Made by a program: the position numbers and the translations under genes. From Balanoglossus misakiensis (Eukaryota; Animalia; Hemichordata), in NCBI GenBank assembly GCA_040954595.2, contig CM082595.2:3519943-3583942 (forward strand): a DNA stretch of 64,000 bases, written 5' to 3'. Shown here piece after piece: positions 30,211 to 64,000 of the stretch; positions within the stretch are counted from its first letter, which is position 1; each line of letters starts with the position of its first letter. Below the pieces are notes generated by a model. That model was not told the origin of the DNA. It saw nothing but the letters and a program-made list of their open reading frames with translations, and made no database searches.

Positions 30211-39647
<9,437 letters not shown>

Positions 39648-39655
<8 letters not shown>

Positions 39656-40470
39656 TTTGATTGTTTACAGGAAGTGTTGGTTTGATTCATTACACGAAAG
39701 GGGTGAGTGCACCATGGCATTGCGGGGACTATCTTGTGTTGACCGATATCAGATATTTCTCTGATATTTACTGCTTTTCAGTGCCTAGAGTTTCACACGA
39801 ACCTTCTGACTCAGAATTATGATGTTAGTTTCACGGAGAGAGTGAGAAAAAGCAAACAGAAACGTAAAAGTGTACCCCCTAGCATACCAGCTCAAAAGTA
39901 GCATAGCCGCATCACGGTGATGTAATCCCTGTCCCCAGGGGGGACATGACCTGAGCAGGGCCTGAACTTTGGGGACACTGGGGGTCCTCCAAACAGCCTG
40001 GGTCTGATCCCATCATGTGCTCGCTTGGCCATTTTGTCATAAATAAGTGTTGAGCTTGATATATTATCATGAAATATCATTTAATAGACATAATTAAAAG
40101 CATATATGAGATTATATAAAACTTTAATTGTTTTATCCAGTCGCAGCTCATGTATCTTTAAACTTCGTACAGAGAAAGTAGACATTTTAGTTCAGTGCAA
40201 TTTCAGACTGATTTACAGGTGGACTGTTTAGTTTACACACCATTTAATATCCACGTTATCTTATCCGGCCCAAGCGTTTATCCTATGTTCATTTCATGTC
40301 TATTTCACCACCTGGATGGAACAAACACAATACCCAGCGCATGCGCGATTGCAATATGACGACTTGATTCTTGGAATTTCCCTTATTCGTTGGAAATGCA
40401 CAGTGGCCTGAGTAGTCCTATTTCCTGCTAAGCCTAAGACTAAAGAGTTTGTTTCTTTCGCTTTTGACAG
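39648..40470. promoter_or_regulatory. Divergent promoter region between SMG8 and the ZAP/PARP12-like gene
   Basis: YY1-like AAAATGGCGG over the SMG8 ATG, ETS-like ACAGGAAGTG at 39667-39676, NRF1-like GCGCATGCGC at 40337-40346, kB site GGAATTTCCC at 40373-40382, IRF-E-like AAAAGCGAAAG (minus) at 40455-40465. Confidence 0.6.
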
Positions 40471-40672
40471 CTTGAGAGAAAGAATCCAGGCTTTACTGTA
40501 TCTCTGAGGGACGAAAAAAGCGTGCAGAAAAGTTCTGAAGCGCAGAGACTAGACACGATCGCACCTGTCGACCGATTGTGGTGGCCTGATGACGGGGTGT
40601 TGAACTGTCTGGCACAAAATGGGTGGAGGCAACCAGTAGAAACTTCAGGTCAACTCCCAGCACACATATGGA

Positions 40673-41211
40673 ATGATGGAAAGACAATACTTCTCCGACA
40701 AAGAAGGTAATTCGCTTCTTAATGCGCGCGTGAAATTGTGCTATTATTACCAGACAACAAAAGGATGCGACAGAACCCACAATTGTCCTCGATTGCACGT
40801 CTGCAGAAATTTTCTGAGCGGCGTGTGCGAAAACGAAAGAAGATGTCAGAAACGACATGCTATCAAAACAGAGCAAAATTCCCGCATTCTAAAGAGATTA
40901 AAATTAACAAGAGTGAGTGAGACAAAACTGCAAACACTTTTGAAGGATTCTCTGCCGAGTATATGCACCGACTACAACGCATCGAGGTGCGACGGACACC
41001 AGTGCGGGCGTTTGCATCTGTGCACTGGTTACATTTTGGGAGAGTGCTCGTCTGATCTGTTTTGTTGTTTGTCACATAACCAAAATAATGGGCGCAACAA
41101 GAAGATTTTGGAGAAATATGGTTTTGCCAATTCCATTGACAATTCAAACAAGTGGATGTCTACCAAGTACTTACTTGTTAATTTTCTTCTTGATGATGAT
41201 GATGATGATTG

Positions 41212-41273
<62 letters not shown>

Positions 41274-44200
41274 ATGGCAGTGAAGGTGACGATTATGGCA
41301 GTGAAGATGATGATGATGGCAGTGAAGAAAGCAGTGAAGATGGTGGTGATGCCATCATCAGTACTATCCAATTATGTCAGGAGAAGGCATGCCCGAATTC
41401 CAACAAATGTGGTGGTGTCCACATTTGCAGGGATTTTGTGAGTGGACTGTGTAAGTCCCAACGCATCTGTGGGAAATCGCACACGTTTGACACTTCACAG
41501 AACAAGAGATTTCTGCAGGCAAACCCGCAGTTGACTTACTTTAAAGACAGCGAACTGTTGGAATTTGTGAAGAATTCTCTACCCAAAGTTTGTGGAAAAT
41601 ACAACCGCCGTGTATGTCAGAAAGATGATTGCAAGTACCTGCATCTTTGTCAGAAGTATGTCCAGGGCGACTGCGAAACCGTCTTTCCGTGCGGCTTCTC
41701 ACACAAACTCAACAAACCATGCAACAAGAAGATCTTTGAGGATCGAGGTATTAATATCCACGTTACCGACCAAAGACCCATTCTGGATTCCATCATCCTG
41801 GATGACTGGATGGAGGATGCGGAAACTGAGACTCCCAAGAATAAGTCAGCCACAGCCCCAAACAAGAAAGTGTCTGGTAACCAAACAGACCAACAGAGAG
41901 GGCCGGCCTCAGACGGGCAGAAAATCACAGGATTGAAGCTCTGCCATTTCTACATCAAGTCGACATGTAATAATGCCCCTCACTGCAGGCAAATTCACAT
42001 CTGTAGGGATTTCCTCAGCGGACTGTGCAAAAGTTACAAAGAGTGTGGCAAATCGCACACATTTAACTTTCCTCACAACAGGAACGTTTTGAAAACACTG
42101 AATCTGCACGGGTTCAGGGAAAAGGAATTGCTAGAAGTTGCAAGAAGCTCTTTGCCCAAAGTATGCGGCAAGTACAACAGGAAACAGTGCTATCAGAAGG
42201 ACTGCCAGTTGCTTCATCTGTGCCAAAGCTATGTTCAGAGGAAATGCACATCGAAGGAGATCTGTGGCCTGTCCCACAACGTGAAAGACCCGCACAACAA
42301 AAATGTCTGTGATGTGTTTGACATCAGCTTGTCTGCCCCTCACTTCCTTCTGACAACTGTTCTCCTTGATGATCAACTTGAAAGCGAGCTTGGTGATGAC
42401 AGAGATGACGTGGGGTCGACTCCAGACAGTTGGGATATTGCACTGGGTGTGGCAGATAATGAAGACATGCATAGGCAGCCATTGAAGGGAGCAAGAAAAC
42501 AGTGGGATAGAGGTGGGTATGGACAGAGAGAGGCTCCCCTCTGGAGACGTGGGAGGGGCCGTGGGAGGGGCAGTGACATCTCGCGAGGAGGAGATTGGTA
42601 TCATGTAACAGACATTGGACAAAGAATCTGGGAAAAGAGTGATCCTCAACCAGACTATGCTTGTGATTTTACACGCAACAAGATGGAGTCCAACAGTGAA
42701 GACGATGACATGTCGTCTGTTTGTTCCAAGTCATCATTTGTTTCTGACACGTCCTCAAAGTTTAATGAGGGAAGAGGCAGAGGGCGACGCAGAAGACAAA
42801 GAAATAGAAGACCAGGCAGAGGAAGAGAGAGGCCAGCTGAAGCAGTGCGGTACTGGCCTAAGGATATGTACTTTGATGAAGACATACACGGTAATACAGT
42901 GCCGGTCATTCCGCCAGCCGAGAGCGCTACCCCGGCGGTCCCTGAACCGAATGCAGCAGGCGTTTTCAAGCTGGTCTTGCAGAAATATCAAGGAAAAGTC
43001 ACCATGGATGAACTGGGGACCAACCAGGATCTGTTTCCTGCTGGAGTCGATGTCGAGAAATGGCTGAGAAGACACGACAGCAAGTTCAACACCGTGGTTG
43101 ATGGTGATGGCCGAACCCAAGTGTCGGTGTTTGAATCAAGGAGTCGCTTGTGCTTCAGTTACAATTCCGACAGAAAGTGCGACAAGGTCTCGTGTGGGTT
43201 TCTGCACATCTGCAAAAACCACGTGGCTGGATTCTGCCGATTTAGAAAAGAATGTAAATTTGCGCACAACTTCGACGAAAAGGTCACCAGGGACAACCTG
43301 AAGAAATTCGGTTTCGACTGTTACAGTGACGAGGAGGTCCTCACCATAATGCGTCTGTCCGTGCCGTTTGTTTGCAAAGATTATGGAAAGAATGGGTCAT
43401 GTAGCAAGGGAAATAGCTGTGAGAACCTGCATCTGTGCAAAGGATACATCACTAACAGCAAGTCGTTCTGTAAACTGCAAGATGGCGAAAACTGCGACCT
43501 ATGCCACAACCTTGACTCAGACCACACGAAGAGCATTCTCAAAAGGTACAAGCTTTCTCATCTGGAAGACCGTCCGGTGCTGAAAACCATTCTGGTTCCC
43601 ACTGATGAGAAAGAGTTTAGGGCGAGAAGACCAAACGCGAGACCTCAGACTGAAGACGCCAGAAACAAGTCCGTGGCTTCGTACGCCGACATTAAGCCGG
43701 CGATAAGTACCGACAGCTCGCACAGAAATCCCGATTCAGAAGTCAGAGAGCCAAGTGTTCGTATCGTCAACAGCAGTGCTCCAATCTGTGTCGACAACTT
43801 ACATGGAAAGTGTAAGAAGGGGGAGAGCTGCATGAATAATCATTGCACAATGCCGTACCAGTGGATCCTGGACCTCGTTTCACCGCTTATCTTTACCGAG
43901 GAGATGAACGAAGCCATCGAGAAAAATTTCTGTGATGTTGCCGTGAGAAAAGTGAAAGCGCCAGGAAGGTACGACAAACATGTCACTGTTTTGTTTGCTT
44001 GATAGAGAAAGGGTTAAAAAAATGCATCCCAGGTAGAAATATATAGACATCCATAGAGATTCTATGATCTTCAAAACTCTGTAGGCTGTAGAATTTTATA
44101 GATATCAATGAAATGTTGTGGGGCAACAGGTTTGTTGTGAAATTCCAGCCTTTCCTGCATCAGATTCTTTGAATTGGTTTATGCAAAACAAACCAAGGTG

Positions 44201-46412
44201 GGCATGATTTATTATGTTATTCTTTTATCCTACCATTTCAGTTTTCATGGTACAACTGTGCATTATGGTAAGCTCACTATTGATTTTGATGACATGCGTG
44301 CCCAAACTGAGCAGCAAAACTCATACAAGATATCTCGACTATCAACTCCCCATGAGAGTAGTATGGCTACCAGTACCACGCCTAGTGCCCTATCTACCAA
44401 ATGGCAGTGGTATTTCAAAGATACTGGTGATGTTTGGACTGAGTATGGTCTTTCTAGTACTGGTCTGGTAAGTTGATTAGCATTCTATAGGCTAGCTGAA
44501 GTAAAAATACACTAATTTATTTCGTAAAAATCACTTGTTAGGCACAATGTTATGTCCAAAGGACAGCCATACATATACCGGTATGTTTTGCACACACAAC
44601 TCATTTTTTGTTTTTATACACAGGCACTGGAAAACATCTTTGAATCAGCATATCTTGCTGACGAAGACAGCTGTACGTTCAAGACTGGCCGTTTTGACTA
44701 TTTGTTGACATTCCGTCACATGAGGCAGACAAACCTGCAGACTTTTACAGAGAGGGACGTTAGACGACGGCCTGTGTTTGTATCACTGAATGATGTGAAA
44801 AGTGCCTTAGCAAGGTAAGTACGACTTATATTTAATTGGCACGAATACTCATGATAAATAAAGAGAAAAATACCTTATATCTGTCTTTCATATGTACCCT
44901 GACTTTTGTTGCATCCTCTTCATATTTCAGCTTGAAAACACAATCTGCAAACCCTGGTCCAAACTTCCCATCCATGTGGACGCGTATATTACCTCCAGAT
45001 AAAGAGTTCATCCGTCACATATTGCCAAGAGGATCACAAGACTTTAGACGTATCGGCGAGCTCTTCAAGAAGACTATGAGTTCAACCAATCAAATTGTCA
45101 GAATAGAAGATATACAAAATCCTCACCTGTGGAGGAAATACCAAAGGTAATCCTGCTCAAATTAACCCCTCTCACCAACATGGTTTAGTCCAGCTCCACT
45201 ATCCCAGTGGTAATTATGGAACACTGAACAGGGAAAAGGGGTAAACTTTAGTTGTAACTCAGAAGACTTGCACATTATGCAAATTTTCAACCACATACAT
45301 GTGTATTGGCATGAGCTGGTGATAACATTCAGGCTTACCCTTTCACCACCATGGTTTGGTCCAAATCCATTGTTTTCTGTGGCAAAGTTTGTCCTCTAAA
45401 GAGGTAAATGGGGGTGAAAGGGTTAAAGAGAACTGTAGTAATGTTCTAGTAAACAAAATCTTTTGAATGTTTTCAATTCCGTAGCCAAAAGGATTACATG
45501 ATGAAGAAAAGGCTGCCAAACCTGGAGAAGTCTCTCTTCCACGGCACTGATGAAGACACGGTACCAAAGATCTGTAAGCAGAATTTTGACTTCCGGGTCC
45601 ATGGAAAGAACGCGACTGTCTACGGGAAAGGATCGTACTTCGCACGCGATGCAAGCTACAGTGATAACTACAGTAGCAGTGGCGGGACAGGGCAACGGTA
45701 CATGTTTGTAGCACATGTTTTGGTCGGCAGGTACACCACAGGAGACAGCTCGTACACGCGACCGCCGGAGATCAGCTCTGAAACGCACGAGCTGTACGAT
45801 TTGTGCGTGGACAGGGCATCCAATCCGAGCATCTATATCGTGTTTTCGCAGGATCAGCATTACCCCAGATATCTGATCACGTACAAGAAAGAAAGCGACA
45901 CGTCTAGTGGTTCCAGCTACGGATTTGGTGCAAGCAGTTACGCCACACCCCGGGCTGTACCTTCGTCAACACGAGTCACGAGTGGTTATAGTTCAGGCAG
46001 TAACACCACATCTTGGGGCGTGCCTTCGTCTACTCAAGTCACGAGTGGTTCCAGTTCAAGCAGTAACACCACATCTTATGGCGTGCCTTCGTCAACTCAA
46101 GTCTCGAGCGGATACGCGCGGGCCAGTAATCCCTACTCTGGCAGCCAAGCTACGAATACCGCTTCAGTCCATCGCACGACACCCTCCGTCTCCTACAGTT
46201 CATACTCTGGAAGTGCCAGTACTTCGACCTCTCGAAACCCATATACCGGTAACGTGCAGTCATCCAGTTCGGGGTATTCGGGAACCGCCGCCAGTTCGCA
46301 ATCCCGAAGCGCATACAGTGCTCAGTCAAGCCAGTATCGTTCGTCATCGGGTTCACGTTCTACACAAGCAACTCCAGTGAAAACAGATAAAAGTGGCTGT
46401 CTGGTAATGTAA
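40673..46412 (+). CDS. ZAP (ZC3HAV1)/PARP12-like CCCH zinc-finger, WWE, mono-ADP-ribosyltransferase; 5 coding exons, about 1618 aa, C-terminal CaaX
   Basis: Exons 40673-43968, 44242-44467, 44624-44814, 44931-45146, 45485-46412, all GT-AG with consistent phases (2,0,2,2). 17 CCCH fingers, an HTH-like segment before module 4, WWE motifs (PYQW; KWQWYFKD...WTEYG; RDVRRRP), PARP motifs IQNPHLW, LFHGT, YGKGSYFARDASYS, NPSIYIVF, YPRYLITY. Ends KSGCLVM*. Confidence 0.93.
41192..41272 (+). repeat. Coding (GAT)n microsatellite giving a poly-Asp linker
   Basis: In frame in exon 1 of the ZAP/PARP12-like gene, between zinc-finger modules 1 and 2. Confidence 0.9.
45162..45426. mobile_element. Two short piggyBac-like mini-elements in intron 4 of the PARP gene (about 45166-45241, degenerate, and 45338-45422)
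   Basis: CCC...GGG ends with TTAA-like flanks; shared core CACCA.CATGGTTT.GTCCA; same family as 36448-36532. Confidence 0.65.
45957..46113 (+). repeat. 63-bp (21-aa) coding tandem repeat, about 2.5 copies, in the Ser/Thr-rich tail
   Basis: VPSSTRVTSGYSSGSNTTSWG / VPSSTQVTSGSSSSSNTTSYG / VPSSTQVSSGY. Confidence 0.85.
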
Positions 46413-49203
46413 CTCATCTGTTGCCACGGTTCCAGTAATGTACAGATCAGAAGGATAGGAGATGTAACTTTGCCAGCTAAACATTTATGCATTACGAGTT
46501 CAAAATGTAATTTTTTGTGAATTTTCAGTGTTTAAAGGTGAAGCTGTAGTGATGATGATATTATAAATAGCTATTACTGCAGTGAAGTAATCAAAGTGAA
46601 CTTTATTTACATGGAAATTATACGAGAAGAATTTATGCACTTTTTGCTGTTCTGTTCTTGATACTTTGAACACTTCAATTTCCATTGTTAGTCAGTGGCT
46701 ATTTCGAATTACTTAAAATAAAAAAAGAAACCAGAGTTGAAACAAATACTGAAAAAAATTGCCAAAAATATGAGTGATTGGGGCTTTATTGATATTGACG
46801 TATTAAAAAAAAACATTGATTTGTGTTTCTTCCTGTAGAGTTTTACTCAATATATTGGGTTTATTTTCAGGCTATCTAGTATATCATGCACTTATCCCCA
46901 TCCTTGCATGGCCATATTTTGTGAATAACCATGTAGCAATAAAATTAAATAAATAACAATTGATTCAAATATAACTTCGAAAGATTTTGTTTGGATTAAA
47001 CCACTAGGTAGATTATTGTTTCTTTAAACATTTGAAATCCTAACTTGATTATTCTGATACATGTATTCTGATTAGCTGTTGTGAAGTTTTGGCTTGTGTT
47101 TGCCCCAATGAGCACAGACAAGACAAAACTCCTTGGTTGATGGTCACCGCCATTCATTTACCTAACGGCAAATCTGATTGGTTGAACAGACAATTATACA
47201 GGTTCTTTTAACATGAAAGGGACTGAAAACAGTATTCGGTATAGACAGGTTTCCAGATAAGACAGGGTTTAGTTTAGACTGGTTTTGCTGCACTTCTTGA
47301 TGTTACATGTAGATCTCAATATTGTGTTTACTAGTTTGTGAAAATCTTGTTGTGTAAGTCATTTAGCCATGGATTTGAAAAAAAAAAACACATTGAACTG
47401 CATAGAAATCTTGAGAACTGGCTGTTGGACACATACATACACACACATGCGTATTCTGCAGATTCCAGAACAAGTTTTTGAACAGCTTATAAATCAGAGT
47501 GGTCTATGACCTTTCAAGTCATATACTTGTCACACAGAAATCAGCGAACTTTGCATTTTTCACAAAGGGCATTTGTTTCTGTCAAGGTTAAAGGGTGGAA
47601 AATACCTAAAACCAAGAACACTTTACCTGGGCTATGACCCAAATCAAAAAGACACAAAAACACACTGATATCTATTAAGGACACCTTTGGGAACACAAAA
47701 TCTGTCCTCAATAGAGAGATGTCCTTAGCAGATAGGTACATGGGGCATTCTATTCAAATTGTAACTGTTGTTTTGAAACAGTGTCCTGATAAAGGAGAGA
47801 TATCTGTAATGGCAGGTTACAGCAAGAATTGTTAATTAACAACATACATACATAAAGCTGATGGTTCAATTTTCTGTAAGCAGGACATCAACCAACAACT
47901 CAGTTAAACGAAAATGGGTGAAATGTAATGTCAAAGATGGAGCTTTGCTCCTTTTGAGATAAATTCGTTTCATTTAAAAATATGTGGTGAATGAAGTGCG
48001 GTTTAATGTGAAATAAAATATGATGTTAATCACCAACCAGTGTTTGAAGTTATTTTTATCGCATCACAAATGAAAATTATTTCAACATTGTTAGAACAAA
48101 CAAAAATGTACATTTATAAACAACCTCAATATAAACTGAAATCCAGTACAGGTCTCAGTGTTAGGATACAGTCCCATAATGGTTGTTGCTTGGAGAGTGA
48201 CAACATTGATTCGAAACATAAATAGATCTTGGCCAAATCAACCAGTCATGGACACATCAAATACTTAACAAGTGTCATGACAGATTACTGACGGTTTACT
48301 ATCTATACTCTGATAACAAATATTTCGAAGGCTACAAGTTGTGACGGCTTCCAACAGGCACTGCAGGTGAGTAGGCCCTAATATATTTTTTTTCCATCCT
48401 CAAAATCTGTCGACTCTCAAATGCGAGTACACATAGTATACGTAATTGTTCGTCCACCATCAATACGTCAAATGAACACCTAGCTGCATTCGCCAGTTTG
48501 TCCAAAGAAAGGATCCCCAGACGAAATGCAACTGAACAGAACGAATAAAATCTCCTGTAGACGAGAGTGATTATTGTCATAGATAAAGAACAGGTGCATG
48601 GAAATATATCATTGTTTGATTTACGTCTATCCTGATCATAAAACTTGCCTTTATTGTAACGTTTCTAACTGGCGTGAAAGTTTAAATGTACATACACATG
48701 TACATGTACAATCACATACACACGCACATGCATATAATACATATACACACATATACAGTTTTCCATCCTTCATCATGTTGCAATTTTGGTACCGTGTGTA
48801 CTTTTTTCATTGTTCTTATCCGCCTGCCTTTAAACTCAATCTGGACTTTAAACAATATGCTTTTTTAATCAGAATCAGATTACCCTTATATTAATTGTAT
48901 ATCTCCGGACATCTTGTTCACATGCACTCAACGAACCCTTAACATGTCATGGTGATGTGACGTAACAAACACTTGTCTCGTCCATAGCAACGTCGATTAA
49001 TATGAGAGACAGCCAGACACAAGGGGAGAAAGAAACAAAGAGGATCGGAGGGAGGGAAGGAAGATGGGCGGACGGGCAGACAGACGCTCAGATAGATAGA
49101 ATAGATAGAGGAGAGAGATAGAAGACAAAAGGAAAGAAAATTTACACCATGTGATGGCCATGAGTGTCTTACTGTGACAATTTTAATTTTTTGAATCTAG
49201 AAA

Positions 49204-50325: not shown

Positions 50326-51220
50326 TCACTTCTGGATAATTTTTATCATCTGTTGAAACGTCCACTGGCTTTGAAGAGAACCGAAAGACATTTACAATAA
50401 TTTACATTAAGAAAATAAAGCATAGTCGGTCTGCAGAATTCAGAGATGGGAACTACCTCACCACGCATAATATATGTAGGCTCCGAATTGACATAGAAGC
50501 GACAACTGATAAAGGAATTCACCAGTGACAGACATATATATTTAATCTGGACACCTGAATAAAACGCAATGCTCGGTGACTGCAGTGTACATGCTATACA
50601 AGAATGTAAAGAAGAAAATTCACAAAAAAGAATTCACAAAAGTAAAAAACAACTAAACTATTCGACTTCATTGCGAATTCGAATATCCATTTCTAGTGAG
50701 AAAACGTAAGTTGAAAGATCAAAATGATTAAAAACCTACATTTAGGCGTATTTGTTGTTCTGTTTTATACTTAATTAATTAAATTGACGAGTACCATAAT
50801 TTAATCACGTAGTCAGACATACACTACATATGCAACAGCGACAGGCATTACACAATAAAATGAAAGATGAAACTTAATAATTAAAATTTGTCAATTTTCT
50901 ATGCAAGCTGTCATGTAGTTACGGGGTACAAAATACAAATTTAAGTGTTTTCATATGCATATACAAGTAACAAATAAATATTTCATATCGGTAATCCTCT
51001 TAAAAGACCAAATTCAATAATTCAGTTAACACTGTTACACTCAGGCTATGAGACCAGAATTGGTGTGATGAGACACAAAAATAAATCTTACATATGAATA
51101 TTACATACAAGTAATAATCGTAAAAGGTGGCAATTAATAATTCAAAGTATGACTGAGCTTAAGTACATACCAGGTATTAACCAATGGCTGCAATGTGAAA
51201 CAGCGCCTTGTACAATTTTC

Positions 51221-53448
51221 TATGACCCATGAAAAATGTCCAAAACTGACGAAATCACCAAAATTCGCAAAATCACGAATTTGTCACTTTTCAGGAATTT
51301 TCATGGGCTATAACCCATGAAAAATGTCCAAAACCGACGAAATCACCAAAATTCGCAAATTCACGAATTTGTCACTTTTCGGGAATTTCATTGGCTATAA
51401 CCCATGAAAAATGTCCAAAACCGACGAAATCACCAAAATTCGCACAATCACGAATTTGTCACTTTTCGGGAATTTTCATGGGCTATAACCCATGAAAAAT
51501 GTCCAAAACCGACGAAAACACCAAAATTCGCAAAATCACGAATTTGTCACTTTTCGGGAATTTTCATGGGCTATATCCCATGAAAAATGTCCAAAACCGA
51601 CGAAATCACAAAAATCCGCAAAATCACGAATTTGTCACTTTTCGGGAATTTTCATGGGCTATAACCCGTGAAAAATGTCCAAAACCGACGAAATCACCAA
51701 AATTCGCAAAATCACGAATTTGTCACTTTTCGGGAATTTCATGGGCTATAACCCATGAAAAATGTCCAAAACCGACGAAATCACCAACATTCGCAAAATC
51801 ACGAATTCGTCACTTTTCGGAAATTTTCATGGGCTTTAACCCATGAAAAATGTCCAAAACCGACGAAATCACCAAAATTCGCAAAATCACGAATTTGTCA
51901 CTTTTCGAGAATTTTCATGGGCTATAACAAATGAAAAATGTCCAAAACCGACGAAATCACAAAAATTCGCAAAATCACGAATTTGTCACTTTTCGAGAAT
52001 TTTCATGGGCTATAACCCATGAAAAATGTCCTAAACCGACGAAATCACCAAAATTCGCACAATCACGAATTTGTCACTTTTCGAGAACGTTCGTGGGCTA
52101 TAACCCATGAAAAATGTCCAAAACCGAGGAACTCACCATAATTCGCAAAATCACTAATTTGTCACTTTTCGGGAACTTTCATGGGCTATAACCCATGAAA
52201 AATGTCCAAAACCGACGAAATCACCAAAATTCGCAAAATCACGAATTTGTCACTTTTCGGGAATTTTCATGGGCTATAACCCATGAAAAATGTCCAAAAC
52301 CGACGAAATCACCAAAATTCGCACAATCCCGAATTTGTCACTTTTCGGGAATTTTCATGGGCTATAACCTATGAAAAATGTCCAAAACCGACGAAATCAC
52401 CAAAATTCGCAAAATCACGAATTTGTCACTTTTCGGGAAATTTCATGGGCTATAACCCATGAAAAATGTCCAAAACCGACGAAATCACCAAAATTCGCAA
52501 AATCACGAATTTGTCACTTTTCGGGAATTTTCATGGGCTATAACCCATGAAAAATGTCCAAAACCGACGAAATCACCAAAATTCGCAAAATCACGAATTT
52601 GTCACTTTTCGGGAATTTTCATGGGCTATAACCCATGAAAAATGTCCAAATCCGACGAAATCACCAAAATTCGCAAAATCACGAATTTGTCACTTTTCGG
52701 GAATTTTCATGGGCTATAACCCATGAAAAATGTCCAAATCCGACGAAATCACCAAAATTCGCAAAATCACGAATTTGTCACTTTTCGGGAATTTTCATGG
52801 GCTATAACCCATGAAAAATGTCCAAAACCGACGAAATCACCAAAATTCGCAAAATCACGAATTTGTCACTTTTCGGGAATTTTCATGGGCTATAACCCAT
52901 GAAAAATGTCCAAAACCGACGAAATCACCAAAATTCGCAAAATCACGAATTTGTCACTTTTCGGGAATTTTCATGGGCTATAACCCATGAAAAATGTCCA
53001 AATCCGACGAAATCACCAAAATTCGCAAAATCACGAATTTGTCACTTTTCGGGAATTTTCATGGGCTATAACCCATGAAAAATGTCCAAATCCGACGAAA
53101 TCACCAAAATTCGCAAAATCACGAATTTGTCACTTTTCGGGAATTTTCATGGGCTATAACCCATGAAAAATGTCCAAAACCGACGAAATCACCAAAATTC
53201 GCAAAATCACGAATTTGTCACTTTTCGGGAATTTTCATGAGCTATAACCCATGAAAAAGGTCCAAAACCGACGAAATCACCAAAATTCGCAAAATCAGGA
53301 ATTTGTCATTTTTTGAGAATTTTCATGAGCTTTAACCCATGAAAAATGTCCAAAACTGACAACATCACCAAAATTCGCAAAGTCGGGAATCTGATATTTT
53401 TTGAGAATTTTCATGAGCTCTAGCCCATGAAAAATGTCCGAAAATGAC
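51221..53448 (+). repeat. 88-bp satellite array, about 25 units
   Basis: Unit CCCATGAAAAATGTCCAAAACCGACGAAATCACCAAAATTCGCAAAATCACGAATTTGTCACTTTTCGGGAATTTTCATGGGCTATAA; period measured from 52201 to 52289; degenerates at the right end. Confidence 0.97.
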
Positions 53449-53677
53449 TTTTAGAGTTTAAATGAGAAAAAATCTGATATATTTTTTTGAAAGATAATAC
53501 CTGAGACATCCTAACCAATTCGAACAACATTTATATGTGGGTTCATGAAAATAGAATAATAATAAAAGTGGTATAATTTTGTGGGGAGAAAGAAATTTAT
53601 TACAATTTGATCTATGAACGATTTGTAACCGCCACCGGCCATGAATAACAACCAGGTTTTCACTCTTCAGCCAATAT

Positions 53678-54649
53678 TCATATATTGTCTGCGGATTTCG
53701 ACATCGCTTTCCAGTGCAAGATCTTACCATACGCGCGGCGGAAATCTTTCTTGTAAGCGTAGATCAGCGGGTTGATGGCCGAGTTCGCAAAGCCCAGCCA
53801 GTGAGTGATTTCGACGTTCTCGGGCGATGCGCAGTTGCAGAAATAGTTGAAGAGCAGCGCTATGTAGACAGGCATCCACAGGATGAGAAAGACTACGGCT
53901 ACTATGAAAATGGTCTTGATTTGCTTGGTTTCTCCAGCAGAGAAGGTTTGCATCTGCGGATCGGCAGGGTTACTGTTTCCATTCGGCTCGCTTCTCAGAG
54001 TTGGCGGTTGCGCGTTGATCTGTCGCATCTGCTTTCTCAAGACTTTAAAGATGTAATGATTTGCATATATGATCACTATGAGAGGCAGCAAGGCGGGGAA
54101 TAGGTTGAATATAACGTGGCCGTGCTTGAAGGGGTAGCAGAGAGGGTAATAGATGATATCTACGCTGAGGTCGTGATTCCAGCGCGGCAGGGCGGGGACC
54201 AAGCAGATGCCGACCGAGATCACCCAGGTGATGCCGATGACGATGCACAAACGCCGTGGTGTCACCAGGACGTTGTAACGCAAGGGATACTTGATGGATA
54301 TGTACTTGTCAACGACCAGTATCATGGCGCTGAAAATCGACTCATGGCATACAGTTCCCATGATACCCTGATGGAAACTGCACGCCAGGTCCCCGAAGGC
54401 CCACGTGCCCTTGATCCGATAGACCAGGTGCACAGGACACACGACGGTCCCCAGAACAAAATCTGTGATCGCCAAGTTGATGATCGGGTAGTTGCTCTTG
54501 ACTTGCCGGATGCCGGGAAACGAGATGATGGCGATCATGACCACGGTGTTGAAGACAACTATACAAAGAGTGATCAAAGTCTCGAATGATATCCCTATTA
54601 TGACAGGGATTGTGAAGTACGTCGAATCTAATGAAGTGGTGTTATTCAT
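53678..54649 (-). CDS. Class A (rhodopsin-like) GPCR, aminergic-receptor-like orphan, single coding exon, 323 aa
   Basis: Seven hydrophobic helices; NLAITD (TM2), WAFG..AC, DKY in place of DRY, YPLRY, TM4 W, FLILWMP (TM6), WLGFANSAINPLIY (TM7), DFRRAY helix 8; N-terminal glycosylation sequons. Confidence 0.93.
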   Translation of the reverse strand: MNNTTSLDSTYFTIPVIIGISFETLITLCIVVFNTVVMIAIISFPGIRQVKSNYPIINLAITDFVLGTVVCPVHLVYRIKGTWAFGDLACSFHQGIMGTVCHESIFSAMILVVDKYISIKYPLRYNVLVTPRRLCIVIGITWVISVGICLVPALPRWNHDLSVDIIYYPLCYPFKHGHVIFNLFPALLPLIVIIYANHYIFKVLRKQMRQINAQPPTLRSEPNGNSNPADPQMQTFSAGETKQIKTIFIVAVVFLILWMPVYIALLFNYFCNCASPENVEITHWLGFANSAINPLIYAYKKDFRRAYGKILHWKAMSKSADNI

Positions 54650-55128
54650 TGTCCCCTCAATCTATATAACCAAAAAACACTATTCCCTCACTAATTCCCC
54701 TTCAATTTGACAATGTCTTCTGTAAATACCAACAGATCACCAACTTCTGACAAGAGGATTTGTCCGCGTTCTTTTGAGCTTAGGGTGAAAGCAGAAAATT
54801 CAGAGTCGGTATATCACCAAAACCATAATCCTCTAAGTCTATTCCACGCGACCTCTATCAACATTCTGTGTTAATTGTATCTTGCCGATATTGTGACTTT
54901 CGTCGTTTAGTCTTCGCCTGCGTCTTAACACGCTTTTCAAGGGAATGTCCAGTTGATGTAAAGATCCGACATCGATCTATGTCATGAATCAGAAATACAA
55001 ACATACATATTAAAGTATTTGCGGTATTTCAGGGAGAACTACGAAATCTCAACTTTAAATAGCAATCGGAGAATGCAATGAACGTGATAAAAGGGAAAAA
55101 AACTCTGGATGAATACTCGGCGACTTAC

Positions 55129-55290
55129 CGACACTTCGTCTTCTATTCTCTGGCGAAATCTTCGAAATCAAGTTGGTTTTACGGTCCACGCGAAGAATTT
55201 CTGTTCTTGTGCACCTTAACACAAAATCTGCAAGAGCATTCGATTGTTTTTCAATGCAACTAGTCCTAAAATACTGTGACTTATAAAACC
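55129..55290 (-). promoter_or_regulatory. Candidate TATA box and non-coding first exon of the GPCR
   Basis: TTATAA at about 55281-55286, donor CG|GTAAGT at 55128, acceptor gtatttacAG at 54720, poly(A) signal AATAAA (minus) at 53596-53601. Confidence 0.45.
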
Positions 55291-55828
55291 TTCAAAAGGA
55301 TTCGAGCGTTTCTAATTCATTAAAATGTATACCCAGAAAATTAATTATGGAAGGTAATTCATAATTAAAAAGCATTCTCACCAACGATCGTGTAAAACAA
55401 GATATTTTAAAATGTTTGGAAACACCATCATATCTGATGGGTAAATTACGCGGTTGCTTTGATCTGTAATTGTGCTGTACTGCTACCAGGGTAATTAAAA
55501 CATTTATTGTTTATCTGTTTTCAGGCTATAAATACATGCATATGATTGCTCTGCGGTCCAAAGATGATCCAAACACTCCACCAAGTTTCATTCCGCGACC
55601 CTGAAACTTTACCAGAAGAAAGAAACAGCAATCATATTTTACCAGTTTCGCCTGCATACAAATCTTTAAAAGATGAGTCGACTCCATTATCAAATTGCAA
55701 TAATTGCTTACAGTTGAATGAATACTAGTAGTTTTGCCTGCAACCTCCCAGCCTTCTTGTTTTTTCGCTCTCCCCCCCCCCCTTCTCTCTCTTCAACAAA
55801 CACACTCACTCTCTCCCTCGTTCGCCGC

Positions 55829-58800
55829 ACATTCTCAAAAAGTGACAAATTCGTGATTTTGCGAATTTTGGTGATTTCGTCGGTTTTGGACATTTTTCAT
55901 GGGTTATAGCCCATGAACATTCTCAAAAAGTGACAAATTCGTGATTTTGCGAATTTTGGTGATTTCGACGGTTTTGGACATTTTACATGGGTTATAGCCC
56001 ATGAAAGTTCTCAAGAAGTGACAAATTCGTGATTTTGCGAATTTTGGTGATTTCGTCGGTTTTGGACATTTTTCATGGGTTATAGCCCATGAAAGTTCTC
56101 AAGAAGTGACAAATTCGTGATTTTGCGAATTTTGGTGATTTCGTCGGTTTTGGACATTTTTCATGGGTTATAGCCCATGAAAGTTCTCAAAAAGTGAGAA
56201 ATTCGTGATTTTGCTAATTTTGGTGATTTCGTCGGTTTTGGACATTTTTCATGGGTTATAGCCCATGAACATTCTCAAGAAGTGACAAATTCGTGATTTT
56301 GCGAATTTTGGTGATTTCGACGGTTTTGGACATTTTTCATGGGTTATAGCCCATGAACATTCTCAAAATGTGACAAATTCGTGATTTTGCGAATTTTGGT
56401 GATTTCGACGGTTTTGGACATTTTTCATGGGTTATAGCCCATGAACATTCTCAAGAAGTGACAAATTCGTGATTTTGCGAATTTTGGTGATTTCGTCGGT
56501 TTAGGACATTTTTCATGGGTTATAGGCCATGAAAGTTCTCAAAAAGTGACAAATTCGTGATTTTGCGAATTTTGGTGATTTCGACGGTTTTGGACATTTT
56601 TCATGGGTTATAGCCCATGAACATTCTCAAGAAGTGACAAATTCGTGATTTTGCGAATTTTGGTGATTTCGACGGTTTTGGACATTTTTCATGGGTTATA
56701 GCCCATGAACATTCTCAAGAAGTGACAAATTCGCGATTTTGCGAATTTTGGTGATTTCGTCGGTTTAGGACATTTTTCATGGGTTATAGCCCATGAACAT
56801 TCTCAAGAAGTGACAAATTCGCGATTTTGCGAATTTTGGTGATTTCGACGGTTTTGGACATTTTTCATGGGTTATAGCCCATGAACATTCTCAAGAAGTG
56901 ACAAATTCGTGATTTTGCGAATTTTGGTGATTTCGTCGGTTTAGGACATTTTTCATGGGTTATAGCCCATGAACATTCTCAAGAAGTGACAAATTCGCGA
57001 TTTTGCGAATTTTGGTGATTTCGTCGGTTTAGGACATTTTTCATGGGTTATAGCCCATGAACATTCTCAAGAAGTGACAAATTCGCGATTTTGCGAATTT
57101 TGGTGATTTCGACGGTTTTGGACATTTTTCATGGGTTATAGCCCATGAACATTCTCAAGAAGTGACAAATTCGTGATTTTGCGAATTTTGGTGATTTCGT
57201 CGGTTTAGGACATTTTTCATGGGTTATAGCCCATGAACATTCTCAAGAAGTGACAAATTCGTGATTTTGCGAATTTTGGTGATTTCGTCGGTTTAGGACA
57301 TTTTTCATGGGTTATAGCCCATGAAAGTTCTCAAAAAGTGAGAAATTCGTGATTTTGCTAATTTTGGTGATTTCGTCGGTTTAGGACATTTTTCATGGGT
57401 TATAGCCCATGAAAGTTCTCAAGAAGTGACAAATTCGTGATTTTGCGAATTTTGGTGATTTCGTCGGTTTTGGACATTTTTCATGGGTTATAGCCCATGA
57501 AAGTTCTCAAGAAGTGACAAATTCGTGATTTTGCGAATTTTGGTGATTTCGTCGGTTTTGGACATTTTTCATGGGTTATAGCCCATGAAAGTTCTCAAAA
57601 AGTGAGAAATTCGTGATTTTGCTAATTTTGGTGATTTCGTCGGTTTTGGACATTTTTCATGGGTTATAGCCCATGAACATTCTCAAGAAGTGACAAATTC
57701 GTGATTTTGCGAATTTTGGTGATTTCGACGGTTTTGGACATTTTTCATGGGTTATAGCCCATGAACATTCTCAAGAAGTGACAAATTCGTGATTTTGCGA
57801 ATTTTGGTGATTTCGACGGTTTTGGACATTTTACATGGGTTATAGCCCATGAAAGTTCTCAAGAAGTGACAAATTCGTGATTTTGCGAATTTTGGTGATT
57901 TCGTCGGTTTTGGACATTTTTCATGGGTTATAGCCCATGAACATTCTCAAGAAGTGACAAATTCGTGATTTTGCGAATTTTGGTGATTTCGTCGGTTTAG
58001 GACATTTTTCATGGGTTATAGCCCATGAAAGTTCTCAAAAAGTGAGAAATTCGTGATTTTGCTAATTTTGGTGATTTCGTCGGTTTAGGACATTTTTCAT
58101 GGGTTATAGCCCATGAAAGTTCTCAAGAAGTGACAAATTCGTGATTTTGCGAATTTTGGTGATTTCGTCGGTTTTGGACATTTTTCATGGGTTATAGCCC
58201 ATGAAAGTTCTCAAGAAGTGACAAATTCGTGATTTTGCGAATTTTGGTGATTTCGTCGGTTTTGGACATTTTTCATGGGTTATAGCCCATGAAAGTTCTC
58301 AAAAAGTGAGAAATTCGTGATTTTGCTAATTTTGGTGATTTCGTCGGTTTTGGACATTTTTCATGGGTTATAGCCCATGAACATTCTCAAGAAGTGACAA
58401 ATTCGTGATTTTGCGAATTTTGGTGATTTCGACGGTTTTGGACATTTTTCATGGGTTATAGCCCATGAACATTCTCAAGAAGTGACAAATTCGTGATTTT
58501 GCGAATTTTGGTGATTTCGACGGTTTTGGACATTTTACATGGGTTATAGCCCATGAAAGTTCTCAAGAAGTGACAAATTCGTGATTTTGCGAATTTTGGT
58601 GATTTCGTCGGTTTTGGACATTTTTCATGGGTTATAGCCCATGAAAGTTCTCAAGAAGTGACAAATTCGTGATTTTGCGAATTTTGGTGATTTCGTCGGT
58701 TTTGGACATTTTTCATGGGTTATAGCCCATGAAAGTTCTCAAAAAGTGAGAAATTCGTGATTTTGCTAATTTTGGTGATTTCGTCGGTTTTGGACATTTT

Positions 58801-60000
58801 TCATGGGTTATAGCCCATGAACATTCTCAAGAAGTGACAAATTCGTGATTTTGCGAATTTTGGTGATTTCGACGGTTTTGGACATTTTTCATGGGTTATA
58901 GCCCATGAACATTCTCAAAATGTGACAAATTCGTGATTTTGCGAATTTTGGTGATTTCGACGGTTTTGGACATTTTTCATGGGTTATAGCCCATGAACAT
59001 TCTCAAGAAGTGACAAATTCGTGATTTTGCGAATTTTGGTGATTTCGACGGTTTTGGACATTTTTCATGGGTTATAGCCCATGAACATTCTCAAAATGTG
59101 ACAAATTCGTGATTTTGCGAATTTTGGTGATTTCGACGGTTTTGGACATTTTTCATGGGTTATAGCCCATGAACATTCTCAAGAAGTGACAAATTCGTGA
59201 TTTTGCGAATTTTGGTGATTTCGTCGGTTTAGGACATTTTTCATGGGTTATAGGCCATGAAAGTTCTCAAAAAGTGACAAATTCGTGATTTTGCGAATTT
59301 TGGTGATTTCGACGGTTTTGGACATTTTTCATGGGTTATAGCCCATGAACATTCTCAAGAAGTGACAAATTCGTGATTTTGCGAATTTTGGTGATTTCGA
59401 CGGTTTTGGACATTTTTCATGGGTTATAGCCCATGAACATTCTCAAGAAGTGACAAATTCGCGATTTTGCGAATTTTGGTGATTTCGTCGGTTTAGGACA
59501 TTTTTCATGGGTTATAGCCCATGAACATTCTCAAGAAGTGACAAATTCGCGATTTTGCGAATTTTGGTGATTTCGTCGGTTTAGGACATTTTTCATGGGT
59601 TATAGCCCATGAAAGTTCTCAAAAAGTGAGAAATTCGCGATTTTGCTAATTTTGGTGATTTCGTCGGTTTAGGACATTTTTCATGGGTTATAGCCCATGA
59701 AAGTTCTCAAGAAGTGACAAATTCGTGATTTTGCGAATTTTGGTGATTTCGTCGGTTTTGGACATTTTTCATGGGTTATAGCCCATGAAAGTTCTCAAGA
59801 AGTGACAAATTCGTGATTTTGCGAATTTTGGTGATTTCGTCGGTTTTGGACATTTTTCATGGGTTATAGCCCATGAACATTCTCAAGAAGTGACAAATTC
59901 GTGATTTTGCGAATTTTGGTGATTTCGTCTGTTTTGGACATTTTTCATGGGTTATAGCCCATGAAAGTTCTCAAAAAGTGACAAATTCGTGATTTTGCGA
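55829..60000 (-). repeat. 88-bp satellite array, about 47 units, inverted relative to 51221-53448
   Basis: Reverse complement of the same unit with array-specific variants (CTTCTTGAGAATGTTC or CTTCTTGAGAACTTTC instead of CTTTTCGGGAATTTTC); abrupt ends. Confidence 0.97.
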
Positions 60001-61486: not shown

Positions 61487-63466
61487 CTATCTTTGGCTTC
61501 CCCGAGCACTTCTCCTGAACACACTCCCGTTACTCTGCCCGCTGATGCTCGGCCGCGATTCCATGGAGCGTTGGGAAGACAGGGTCTGTCGGGAAGACAC
61601 TGACTCCGTATCCGGGGGTTCCATGAAGACGTGATGCGGCAGAGTCAGCGTGCAGCATCCGGTCCTGAGGATGGGCTCCGGCAGTTCACCGACAACGTCC
61701 CATTCGTCTTCATGCGCGCTGTAACACTGGATGTCCTTCTCGCGCTGTCGGCTGCGACCATTGTACCCACCCATGACGTAAATCTTGTTGTCCAGAACGG
61801 CCACTCCGGACATACTGAGCCCGGTCAGCATCGGCGACAGACTCGTCCACTCGTTGGAGTCCGGGTTGTAGCTCTCGCAGCTCATGACATCCACACGGTC
61901 ACCATACGCGTTGACGTGGTTACCACCCATGACGTAGATGCGATTTCTCATCGCCACCATCATGTGGAAGCCACGAGGAACCTGCATTGACTGCAGGGGC
62001 TGCCAGGAGTTGGAGCCCTGGTTGAAGGTGAAGAGGGAACTGGAAAACATCCTGTTGCTAAACCCACCCGAGATGTAGAGTTTATCCTTGAGGGTGCATC
62101 CAGCCAAGGCGTACGTCGGGTCCGGGAAGGACGGCACGTATTTCCACTCGTTCACTTCTGGTTTATAACATTCCACGGAAGAGAGAGGACCCTGTTCGTT
62201 CTTCCCAGCCACGGCAAACAGGCACCCACCTAAGGCCTGCAGAGTGAAGAACGCCCTCCTCTGCTGCATCGGGCAGATCTGAAGCCAGGTGTTGAATCGC
62301 GGATCGTACCGGTGCACCGTCCCGATGCTGTCCTTCCCGTTGGAGTTCAAGCTGACCTGCCCGCCGACGATGTACAGAAAATGGTTCAGGACGGTGACGC
62401 AGTGATCCACGCGCTTCAGCGGCATCGTGGTCAGACGCTTCCACTTTCCGTAGCACTCGTCGAAGATCAGCACGAGGTTACTCACTTGCTGGTCGCCGCG
62501 CTCGCCTCCGATCGCCAAGATGACGTCGTTCGTGGATCGCAGCTTCGTCCGGGGCGACTGCAAGGAGTGCTGTCTGTGCGGCACCAGGTGGTAGTTCAAT
62601 GCCTCCATCAGCAACTTGTGACAATCCGGATCGCGCATCATAAACTCGTGAGACTGTACATGGTCGACCAAATCACTGGACGAGATCAGCGGGAAGCGTA
62701 TATTCCGCATCAGTCTGCTCGAAAACTGCTGACGCGCCTCCTCATCATCCAAGATCCACCTCGCCGCAATTTTGAAGAGCTGAAGTTCAGACTGCACCGC
62801 CAACCGATCTTGCCGCAAGAACCATGCAAGCTGATCTGCATTGAGAGACTGGTAGCTTAGCGTCTGGGCAACTTCGACAAAATTATCAATTATGTATTCC
62901 TGAGATACCTTCAGTAAACTCGTGAATTTGAGTCGGTCGGCTAAGAAGAGTATATGAATGGCGTTGTCAGTGCAGATGGCTGTTTGGAGGTACTCTACAC
63001 AGAGTTTAGTGATGGTTTTCATGTCCAGCTGGATTGATGCGTTCAGGACCGCTTCCACGTTCTCCAGCATCAAGGTGATCTTGGACGTGTAGCAGTATTC
63101 CAGGATGGCTTCCAGTCCCTCGGCGGCGATCTGGGGCAGCTCGATCTCCCGGATGCCGTTGCCGGCGGTGAAGATGGTCTTGAAGTAGTCGCTGCAGGAG
63201 GCCAGCACCGCCCGGTGGATCATGTAGTGCGTGCCGCTGGCGATGACCGTGCCGTCGCAGAGAAGCTTCTCGACCCGCAGCGAGTTCAGACACCCCAGAA
63301 GCTCGTTCGAGTGGCTCTCCGACGTAAACGTCTTGTTCGGCGGCGGGAACTCCAAGTTGTGCAACCGCTGCCGTGGCGACCGGGGACTGGCTGATGCCAC
63401 CGACCGCGGGGAGTGGTGCGCGGAACCCCTGCTTCGGTTGGAGTTGTTCAGTTCTGGAGATGCCAT
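61487..63466 (-). CDS. Kelch-like BTB-BACK-Kelch protein, KLHL9/13/14-like, single coding exon, 659 aa
   Basis: BTB (LCDGTV...HRAVLASCSDYF), BACK (SELQLF...IRFPLI), six kelch repeats (GG...YDPRFNTW, VECYKP..NEW). GCCATGG start at 63466 with an in-frame stop upstream; splice acceptor at 63496 implies an upstream 5'UTR exon. Confidence 0.93.
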   Translation of the reverse strand: MASPELNNSNRSRGSAHHSPRSVASASPRSPRQRLHNLEFPPPNKTFTSESHSNELLGCLNSLRVEKLLCDGTVIASGTHYMIHRAVLASCSDYFKTIFTAGNGIREIELPQIAAEGLEAILEYCYTSKITLMLENVEAVLNASIQLDMKTITKLCVEYLQTAICTDNAIHILFLADRLKFTSLLKVSQEYIIDNFVEVAQTLSYQSLNADQLAWFLRQDRLAVQSELQLFKIAARWILDDEEARQQFSSRLMRNIRFPLISSSDLVDHVQSHEFMMRDPDCHKLLMEALNYHLVPHRQHSLQSPRTKLRSTNDVILAIGGERGDQQVSNLVLIFDECYGKWKRLTTMPLKRVDHCVTVLNHFLYIVGGQVSLNSNGKDSIGTVHRYDPRFNTWLQICPMQQRRAFFTLQALGGCLFAVAGKNEQGPLSSVECYKPEVNEWKYVPSFPDPTYALAGCTLKDKLYISGGFSNRMFSSSLFTFNQGSNSWQPLQSMQVPRGFHMMVAMRNRIYVMGGNHVNAYGDRVDVMSCESYNPDSNEWTSLSPMLTGLSMSGVAVLDNKIYVMGGYNGRSRQREKDIQCYSAHEDEWDVVGELPEPILRTGCCTLTLPHHVFMEPPDTESVSSRQTLSSQRSMESRPSISGQSNGSVFRRSARGSQR

Positions 63467-64000
63467 GGCAACCAAATCAATGTGGAATGTTCATTCTGAA
63501 AGTACACAAATGAAATGAGAAAATAATGAAGAGACAGAACACAAAGTTCACATAAGGTCATGAAATAAATTATTAATATACATGTAGCTGATCACTGTGG
63601 TAGCTTATTTCCTAATGCATCAGCATTTCAACATATCTCTATATTTTTATTGACATATGTGATGTACAACAGCCAGAACGTCATGTTTCAACTAAAATCA
63701 CCATTTTGCATCATGAATAGGCTCTGGATAGAAACGTTTAAATTCAAGGTCTTTAAAATGAAATTTGTCTTCAAATGTGAAAAGGAAAACCAAAGAAAAT
63801 CCCTCCTGTTGCCTCCCTTCTTTCCATAAAAGAAATCTACTTAGCCATTTTCCAACTGACTGCTTCAGTTTCCTGTTACATTCATAACAACACACAGACC
63901 ATATTGAGAGTAACGCTACCCTGCAGCCATTGCTGATATGGGTACATTATTACATTTATTAAATAAAGAAACTGTGTTATCCAAATCAATAGTTCTTTGC

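What the first reader, a model, noticed from the sequence alone, without database searches (positions are those of the whole stretch)
40673..43968. ZAP/PARP12-like protein with a quadruplicated RNA-binding module (17 CCCH fingers in one 3.3-kb exon)
Seen: four complete 4xCCCH modules (about 40739-41076, 41375-41703, 41942-42277, 43151-43506) plus one finger before the WWE pair. Only module 4 is preceded by the HTH-like segment. Modules 2 and 3 are still similar at DNA level, pointing to intra-exonic duplication. Known: human ZAP and PARP12 have one such module, and ZAP uses it to bind CpG-containing viral RNA, with activity scaling with the number of sites. Inference: a covalently multimerised invertebrate RNA sensor. 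Finger 2 of module 4 ends CKFAH (compare ZAP CKYSH, part of the CpG pocket) while modules 1-3 have CQKRH or CGKSH, suggesting diversified specificity.
Basis: partly seen in the sequence, partly recalled or inferred. Interest (0 to 1): 0.8.

Follow-up and report, generated by a model that had tools for sequence, protein, structure and literature searches.

The report
Four-headed PARP12/ZAP-like antiviral gene
This gene, likely from an acorn worm, encodes a relative of the antiviral proteins PARP12 and ZAP with four copies of the zinc-finger module that humans have once; such repeats recur across invertebrates and would likely grip RNA by avidity rather than by reading CpG.

Summary
In detail: 17 CCCH fingers (four 4xCCCH modules plus one) lie in one 3,296-nt reading frame. 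It continues through four GT-AG exons into a 1,618-aa protein with finger-WWE-WWE, an H-Y-I PARP domain and a C-terminal CaaX box. Closest relatives are Ptychodera flava paralogs: one carries modules 1-3, another two copies of module 4. The duplications are old, not recent. The layout is not unique: 86 of 153 fetched proteins (a set ranked in favour of repeats) have at least 2 modules and 10 have at least 4. Named examples include corals, Nematostella, amphioxus, a nemertean, a snail and crustaceans, with lineage-specific duplications on the module tree. I found no paper describing this repetition. [quoted passage not shown] Best reading: a likely membrane-anchored, mono-ADP-ribosylating antiviral factor with multivalent, non-CpG nucleic-acid-binding heads. 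By-product: CaaX and the winged helix, published as tetrapod ZAP innovations, occur in invertebrates. No RNA data or binding test was available. New variant of a known kind.

The parts
40673..43968 (+). First coding exon (3,296 nt): four 4xCCCH modules, linkers, winged helix, finger 17, start of WWE1
   Evidence: Open frame and GT donor; N-terminal length before finger 1 matches Ptychodera flava P0001
40727..41143 (+). Module 1 (4 CCCH fingers, no winged helix), net charge +12
   Evidence: 53% identical to P0001 module 1; mostly high pLDDT
41180..41356 (+). Acidic poly-Asp linker on a GAT repeat
   Evidence: an acidic tract sits at the same place in P0001; low pLDDT
41372..41770 (+). Module 2 (finger 1 has short C-x4-C spacing), net charge +9
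   Evidence: 57% to P0001 module 2; sister to it, 100/99
41933..42328 (+). Module 3, net charge +12
   Evidence: 48% to P0001 module 3
42470..42847 (+). Low-complexity linker with RG/Arg-rich patches and an acidic-Ser motif shared with P. flava P0012
42947..43138 (+). Winged helix-turn-helix like the ZAP N-terminus
   Evidence: model pLDDT 93.8; VIA Z 13.7, 2.9 A over 129 residues to human ZAP 6uei
43139..43570 (+). Module 4 (finger 2 ends CKFAH), net charge +6
   Evidence: phmmer to ZAP structures E 3e-10; 60-63% to P. flava P0012 and P0067
43787..43843 (+). Finger 17 (the single CCCH finger before the WWE pair)
44242..44467 (+). Coding exon: WWE1 end and WWE2 start; Phe at the place of ZAP W611
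   Evidence: best PDB match ZAP central domain E 6e-5
44624..44814 (+). Coding exon: WWE2 with Gln at the place of ZAP Q668
   Evidence: best PDB match ZAP central domain E 4e-6
44931..45146 (+). Coding exon: start of the PARP domain
45485..46412 (+). Last coding exon: PARP catalytic core (H-Y-I), Ser/Thr-rich tail, CaaX box CLVM and stop
   Evidence: Pfam PARP E 2e-21; best PDB match human PARP12 E 5e-35

Best explanation
This is a five-coding-exon gene, likely of an acorn worm, for a predicted 1,618-aa PARP12/ZAP-family protein with four zinc-finger modules, and it likely works as a membrane-anchored antiviral enzyme whose repeated basic modules would grip RNA by avidity without reading CpG. 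Shown from sequence: four complete modules, finger-WWE-WWE, H-Y-I PARP domain, CaaX box. Inferred steps: (1) the CaaX box is prenylated and places the protein on internal membranes, as for ZAP-L; (2) the modules, predicted to fold separately on flexible linkers, bind several sites on one RNA, so that several weak contacts add up; module 4, with the winged helix and aromatic finger-2 pocket, is the ancestral-type reader and modules 1-3 are added, electrostatic or differently tuned contacts; (3) WWE2 binds ADP-ribose chains and clusters the protein; (4) the PARP domain mono-ADP-ribosylates proteins on the bound RNA, as human PARP12 does to alphavirus proteins. The repetition is an old and recurrent feature of invertebrate members, reached by separate duplications in several lineages.
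For: Gene model in frame with GT-AG introns. Modules 1-3 fold with high confidence but no fixed mutual packing (mean pLDDT 79.8, pTM 0.40, linkers under 50) and match ZAP structures best (E 5e-6). All modules are basic (+6 to +12). Allelic differences in modules 2-4 are 10 synonymous to 2 replacement versus 1 to 6 in two linkers (p 0.006). H-Y-I triad and best match PARP12. WWE pocket residues kept. CaaX in 13 of 30 PARP-bearing homologs versus 1 of 123 others. A three-module relative, Nematostella XP_001636351.2, is named as among the genes most induced by 2'3'-cGAMP (PMC11784840). ZAP needs several molecules on one RNA (PMC8853533). PARP12 ADP-ribosylates viral proteins (PMC11784840 abstract).
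Against: No RNA binding, enzyme activity, prenylation or expression was measured for this gene. Human PARP12, whose PARP domain this one resembles more than ZAP's, gave no detectable RNA adducts (PMC8102003). Modules 1-3 lack both finger-2 aromatics. The whole module 4 model does not superpose on ZAP as one body (TM 0.48, rmsd about 10.7 A). The cGAMP-induced Nematostella protein has an R-Y-V triad, so induction and catalysis need not go together, and I found no PARP mention in the main text of the cGAMP paper itself. Avidity is an inference from architecture alone.
Confidence: 0.5

Rival explanations
1. The modules are protein-binding or localisation units rather than RNA readers, as may hold for human PARP12; repetition multiplies docking sites for substrates or cofactors of the ADP-ribosyltransferase.
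For: Human PARP12 gave no RNA adducts and lacks ZAP's CpG residues (PMC8568172). Modules 1-3 lack the finger-2 aromatics. ZAP's module also binds proteins: a structure with KHNYN exists (9bgl) and its helices set TRIM25 compatibility.
Against: All four modules are strongly basic, and module 4 keeps a K/F/K/F finger-2 set found in only 14 of 244 parsed modules and kept in all three P. flava orthologous modules.
Confidence: 0.25
2. One reading: a covalently multimerised, CpG-reading sensor like ZAP, module 4 reading CpG and modules 1-3 other motifs.
For: Module 4 matches ZAP K89/Y98/K107/Y108 by class; winged helix plus fingers 1-2 superpose on ZAP at 2.9 A over 129 residues; CaaX present; the window overall is mildly CpG-poor (0.67-0.74).
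Against: Phe stands at Y108, and Y108A/F is reported to abolish CpG discrimination (PMC9253567). Two neighbouring genes have CpG o/e 0.97 and 1.01, so host mRNA offers little CpG contrast (only two genes). Invertebrate viruses show minimal CpG suppression (PMC12204182). CpG specificity is placed at or after the ZAP/PARP12 split.
Confidence: 0.1
3. The protein regulates host RNA (stress granules, transposon or germline transcripts) and is not mainly antiviral; repeats tune affinity for long host RNAs.
For: RG-rich linker (9 RG); the winged helix also resembles LOTUS domains, though only at Z 7.3-7.5 among many winged helices; allelic data show purifying constraint in modules rather than rapid change.
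Against: Family members are tied to antiviral responses from anemone to human; module number changes even between neighbouring P. flava paralogs, as is common in immune genes (inference).
Confidence: 0.1
4. The 5' modules are not part of the expressed protein (read-through frame, fused neighbours or assembly error).
Against: 1,100 stop-free codons; P. flava RefSeq model XP_070560794 joins the same three modules and acidic linker to WWE-PARP; DNA contigs of run X1 tile modules 2-4 without differences; coding indel alleles are in frame (45 and 6 nt); spliced three-module coral proteins stand on ~6-kb Logan contigs.
Confidence: 0.05

Closest known systems
Ptychodera flava XP_070560794.1, XP_070560801.1 and XP_070534777.1 (RefSeq; first two named ZAP-like, third uncharacterized)
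   Same: Same C-terminal block (49-54% identity; one starred clade with the window), H-Y-I, CaaX. 794 has modules 1-3 and the acidic linker; 801 has two winged-helix-plus-module-4 units; 777 has one.
   Different: None of the three models carries all four module types; the window gene does.
Human PARP12 (ARTD12)
   Same: 4xCCCH module, finger-WWE-WWE, H-Y-I mono-ART domain (best PDB match, E 5e-35).
   Different: One module; no CaaX (PMC8568172); no RNA binding detected.
Human ZAP-L (PARP13, ZC3HAV1)
   Same: Winged helix plus 4xCCCH fold, WWE pocket residues, C-terminal CaaX.
   Different: One module; inactive Y-Y-V PARP versus H-Y-I here; Tyr98/Tyr108 versus Phe/Phe in module 4 and no aromatics in modules 1-3; fingers 3-4 predicted in a different orientation.
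Nematostella vectensis XP_001636351.2 and Montipora ZAP-like proteins
   Same: Three modules, WWE pair, PARP, CaaX; in corals the modules also appear to sit in one large exon.
   Different: Their modules form cnidarian clades apart from the window's; winged helices precede several modules; the Nematostella triad is R-Y-V.

Membership tests
CCCH zinc-finger PARP subfamily (PARP7/12/13) | [quoted passage not shown] | tested here: met
   definition from PMC11784840
PARP12/ZAP-like proteins | N-terminal 4xCCCH module in ZAP/PARP12 configuration | tested here: met
   Present four times; PF25261 E 1.6e-38; ZAP structures are the only matches at E<=0.001 by fold
PARP12-type active mono-ART | H-Y-I catalytic triad | tested here: met
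   Aligned to PARP12 2pqf
PARP12-type active mono-ART | Measured mono-ADP-ribosylation | not testable with these tools
   Needs an NAD+ assay
ZAP (PARP13) proper | CpG pocket K89/Y98/K107/Y108 in finger 2 | tested here: not met
   Module 4 K/F/K/F (class match, but Y108F is reported to lose CpG discrimination); modules 1-3 R/N/Q/K, R/S/G/K, R/S/G/K. F144 alignment ambiguous next to a 4-residue gap
ZAP (PARP13) proper | [quoted passage not shown] | tested here: not met
   H-Y-I; 124 bits to PARP12 versus 96 to ZAP. Bird and alligator ZAP may be active, so this is not decisive for all ZAPs
ZAP (PARP13) proper | C-terminal CaaX box | tested here: met
   CLVM before the stop; prenylation itself untested
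ZAP (PARP13) proper | N-terminal winged helix before the fingers | tested here: met
   Module 4 only; Z 13.7, 2.9 A, 129 residues; absent before modules 1-3
ZAP (PARP13) proper | Whole RNA-binding domain superposes on ZAP | tested here: inconclusive
   First two thirds superpose; full-length alignments give rmsd 7.5-10.7 A; model built without zinc or RNA
ZAP (PARP13) proper | Falls in the lungfish-tetrapod ZAP clade | tested here: inconclusive
   The protein groups with hemichordate sequences (97/96), but no confirmed ZAP, PARP7 or PARP11 sequence was in the tree
ZAP (PARP13) proper | Direct RNA binding and TRIM25/KHNYN-dependent decay | not testable with these tools
   Needs CLIP and cofactor assays; cofactor genes not sought, no genome held

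The most novel reading that the evidence does not exclude
Invertebrate PARP12/ZAP proteins form an undescribed 'accordion' family of antiviral RNA sensors: the four-finger module was amplified separately in cnidarians, hemichordates, nemerteans, snails and barnacles (2 to 5 copies), giving hard-wired avidity and diversified RNA readers in one chain. The ancestral animal protein already had the winged helix, the CaaX anchor and an active PARP, so ZAP's published stepwise 'gains' in tetrapods are largely retentions. This gene, holding both an ancestral-type module 4 and three derived modules, is a natural test case for how RNA specificity arose.
Probability: 0.3. Interest if true: 0.7.

Novelty: new variant of a known kind. 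Interest (0 to 1): 0.45.

Why it matters
ZAP needs several molecules on one RNA to act; proteins that carry 2-5 modules in one chain would let one test directly how valency and spacing set self/non-self RNA discrimination in animals without strong CpG depletion. Surveys of the family have treated invertebrate members as single-module PARP12 look-alikes. The CaaX box and winged helix in cnidarian, spiralian and hemichordate members conflict with a 2025 account that places both gains in tetrapod ZAP.

Tried and rejected
Whole-genome look-up: none held. Sequencing runs: no RNA holder listed; the three listed runs are DNA-type contigs of one sample and show no splice joints; this says nothing on expression. 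Recent duplication of modules 2/3: rejected, third codon positions at 34% like all other pairs. All four modules duplicated within this lineage alone: rejected (p-AU 4e-5). All hemichordate modules as one clade: not rejected (p-AU 0.157), and not shown. Promoter motifs: NF-kB consensus 3 found versus 3.4 expected, ISRE core 5 versus 5.8; no support for inducibility. The 80-codon frame at 40468-40710 has no Pfam match and was not treated as a lost winged helix. Word-indexed searches with modules 2-3 and with module 4 each returned only one P. flava protein; they were limited to 603-1922 aa. Dallia P0082 (two modules with WWE-PARP after the first) is probably a fused gene model and is not counted as evidence. 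Earlier scan notes held no look-alike stretch. The cGAMP paper's main text has no PARP mention; its supplements were not read. No complex prediction was run.

Full report
Observation. The + strand holds one stop-free frame from 40640 to 44002. It contains exactly 17 CCCH fingers; the four modules begin at 40739, 41375, 41942 and 43151 and the last finger at 43787. All zinc ligands are kept in all four modules and Pfam zf-CCCH_PARP12 matches at E 1.6e-38. Four further exons with GT-AG borders (44242-44467, 44624-44814, 44931-45146, 45485-46412) continue the frame to a 1,618-aa protein that ends in CLVM. The splicing is predicted from sequence and homology; no RNA was available. The start at 40673 is supported by a near-equal N-terminal length in the closest relative.

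Domains. The two middle exons match the ZAP central domain best among solved structures. Using the 57-residue distance between W611 and Q668 to fix the numbering, Q668 is kept and W611 is Phe; both residues are needed for poly(ADP-ribose) binding in ZAP (PMC8853533, passages). The PARP domain matches human PARP12 best (E 5e-35, 124 bits; ZAP 96 bits) and has the H-Y-I triad. AlphaFold2 models the winged helix plus module 4 at pLDDT 93.8; ZAP structures are the top fold matches (E 3e-11). The winged helix and fingers 1-2 superpose at 2.9 A over 129 residues (Z 13.7), but whole-length alignments have rmsd 7.5-10.7 A. Modules 1-3 each fold with mostly high confidence, with disordered linkers and pTM 0.40, which indicates no confident mutual packing; their best fold match is again ZAP.

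Origin. The best relatives are Ptychodera flava proteins, an enteropneust hemichordate, and the finger-WWE-PARP block groups with three P. flava proteins (96/93) and Glandiceps (97/96) (19 of 26 named proteins had enough of that block to enter). The organism is therefore likely a hemichordate. Modules 1, 2 and 3 match modules 1, 2 and 3 of XP_070560794 (53, 57, 48%; module 3 is almost equally close to its module 2), acidic linker included, while module 4 matches XP_070560801 and XP_070534777 (60-63%). The start of 801 is 82% identical to residues 779-829 of 794, so the two look like duplicates that kept different modules, or 801 is an incomplete model. Holding the window's four modules together as one clade is rejected (p-AU 4e-5); holding all hemichordate modules together is not (0.157). 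Modules 2 and 3 are the closest pair (47%), but third codon positions agree at 34%, as in every other pair. The duplications predate the split from P. flava.

Constraint. Contigs of three coded DNA runs, one sample, were laid on 41400-46500. Of 48 listed differences 40 were shown; I set aside 3 in an intronic repeat, and 1 was intronic. The other 36 fall in 35 codons, 19 synonymous and 16 replacement. Modules 2-4 show 10 synonymous and 2 replacement, the two linkers around module 4 show 1 and 6 (p 0.006; modules 2-3 alone 5 and 1, p 0.03). Coding indels were 45 and 6 nt. This supports selection on the extra modules as protein. It is not independent of the assembly and does not cover module 1.

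How common. A profile of the four modules found 1,039 cluster representatives at E<=0.001, of which the best were listed. Among all 153 proteins then held, 62 have one full module, 47 two, 29 three, 8 four, 2 five and 5 none. Ranking by total score favours repeats, so this is a lower bound on numbers, not a frequency. Named multi-module proteins come from Montipora (3), Nematostella (3), Tubulanus (3), Branchiostoma (2), Pomacea (2), Hyalella (2) and the barnacle Amphibalanus (4-5, without WWE or PARP) (30 proteins looked up). Fourteen of the 153 join 2-3 modules to a PARP domain; none joins four. However, three unnamed 4-5-module proteins end at the same motif where a coral genomic frame leaves its spliced three-module protein, so they are probably first exons of longer genes. 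On a tree of 61 modules from 26 proteins, starred clades unite modules within barnacles, cnidarians, Tubulanus, gastropods and hemichordates, while the backbone is unresolved. Separate amplifications are the simplest reading; concerted evolution of older repeats and a two-module ancestor are not excluded.

CpG question. ZAP's key contacts are K89, Y98, K107 and Y108 (PMC8102003, passages). Module 4 has K, F, K, F; only 14 of 244 parsed modules (of 289) match all four by class, and the three P. flava orthologous modules are among them. Modules 1-3 have no aromatic at either place. But Y108A/F is reported to abolish CpG discrimination (PMC9253567, passages), aromatics at these places are the general CCCH base-stacking pattern (recalled), human PARP12 showed no RNA adducts and no CpG effect (PMC8102003 section 7), and invertebrate viruses show minimal CpG suppression (PMC12204182, parts 1-2 of 3). 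CpG o/e is 0.67-0.74 for the window, 0.77 for this coding sequence and 0.97-1.01 for two neighbouring genes. A CpG-specific sensor is unlikely.

Mechanism. Shown: architecture, ligands, triad, CaaX, conservation. Inferred: prenylation and membrane anchoring, by analogy with ZAP-L (PMC8568172, passages); multivalent RNA binding by four basic modules (+12, +9, +12, +6), by analogy with the need for several ZAP molecules per RNA; ADP-ribose-driven clustering through WWE2; and mono-ADP-ribosylation of viral or host proteins, as for PARP12 (PMC11784840 abstract). An immune role is supported at family level: that paper names Nematostella XP_001636351.2 among the genes most induced by 2'3'-cGAMP (section 10), and that protein has three modules. 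I could not confirm the induction in the cited paper's main text (PMC8713801, zero hits for PARP), and this Nematostella protein has an R-Y-V triad. The strongest rival is that the modules bind proteins rather than RNA.

What is in print. Six searches (listings only, apart from the papers named) gave no description of repeated four-finger modules. PMC8102003 selected proteins with five fingers and reports usually one gene per invertebrate. PMC11784840 says invertebrate members often have additional zinc fingers like vertebrate PARP12/13; its figures and supplements were not seen and may show module counts. The library lacks most subscription papers. PMC12204182 places the gain of the winged helix and CaaX in tetrapod ZAP from a vertebrate-only sample. 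Here 13 of 30 PARP-bearing homologs end in a CaaX-like motif against 1 of 123 others (many of the latter are truncated), spanning cnidarians, molluscs, a brachiopod, amphioxus and hemichordates, and the winged helix superposes on ZAP's. Retention from an early animal ancestor is more economical than a tetrapod gain, though no rooted tree with ZAP was built.

Verdict. A real, well-conserved four-module PARP12/ZAP-like gene; a new variant of a known family rather than a new system. The gene is near the upper end of a recurrent invertebrate pattern that I did not find described. Interest 0.45.

Noticed in passing
window 35850-39655 (-): SMG8 (nonsense-mediated decay factor) lies head to head with the PARP12-like gene: four exons hit Pfam Smg8_Smg9; a likely first exon starts near 39655, about 1 kb from the PARP12-like start.
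   Followed up: partly
window 46398-46409 and proteins P0004, P0022, P0041, P0132, P0133, P0150: CaaX boxes are widespread in invertebrate PARP12-like proteins (13 of 30 PARP-bearing homologs), against a published tetrapod origin.
   Followed up: partly
   Followed up: partly
proteins P0011, P0016, P0159: Barnacle proteins made of 4-5 modules with no WWE or PARP match; crustaceans thus keep the module although one paper reported arthropods lack the family.
   Followed up: no
window 51220-60000: Two arrays of an 88-bp satellite in opposite orientation (25 and 47 copies) flank an intronless rhodopsin-family GPCR gene at 53678-54661 (-).
   Followed up: no
window 61487-63490 (-): Single-frame BTB-BACK-Kelch gene.
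   Followed up: no
window 40373-40382 (-): A perfect NF-kB consensus site 300 bp upstream of the start; the window-wide count is at chance level.
   Followed up: yes
window 45337-45427: A short, very high-copy interspersed element in the last intron.
   Followed up: no
window 45931-46115 and 43686-43730: A 63-bp tandem repeat (2.9 copies) builds part of the Ser/Thr tail; a 45-nt in-frame deletion allele lies in the linker after module 4.
   Followed up: no
window 156-377 (-): An exon that looks like the N-terminal PH region of a phospholipase C (recalled; Pfam gave no match).
   Followed up: no
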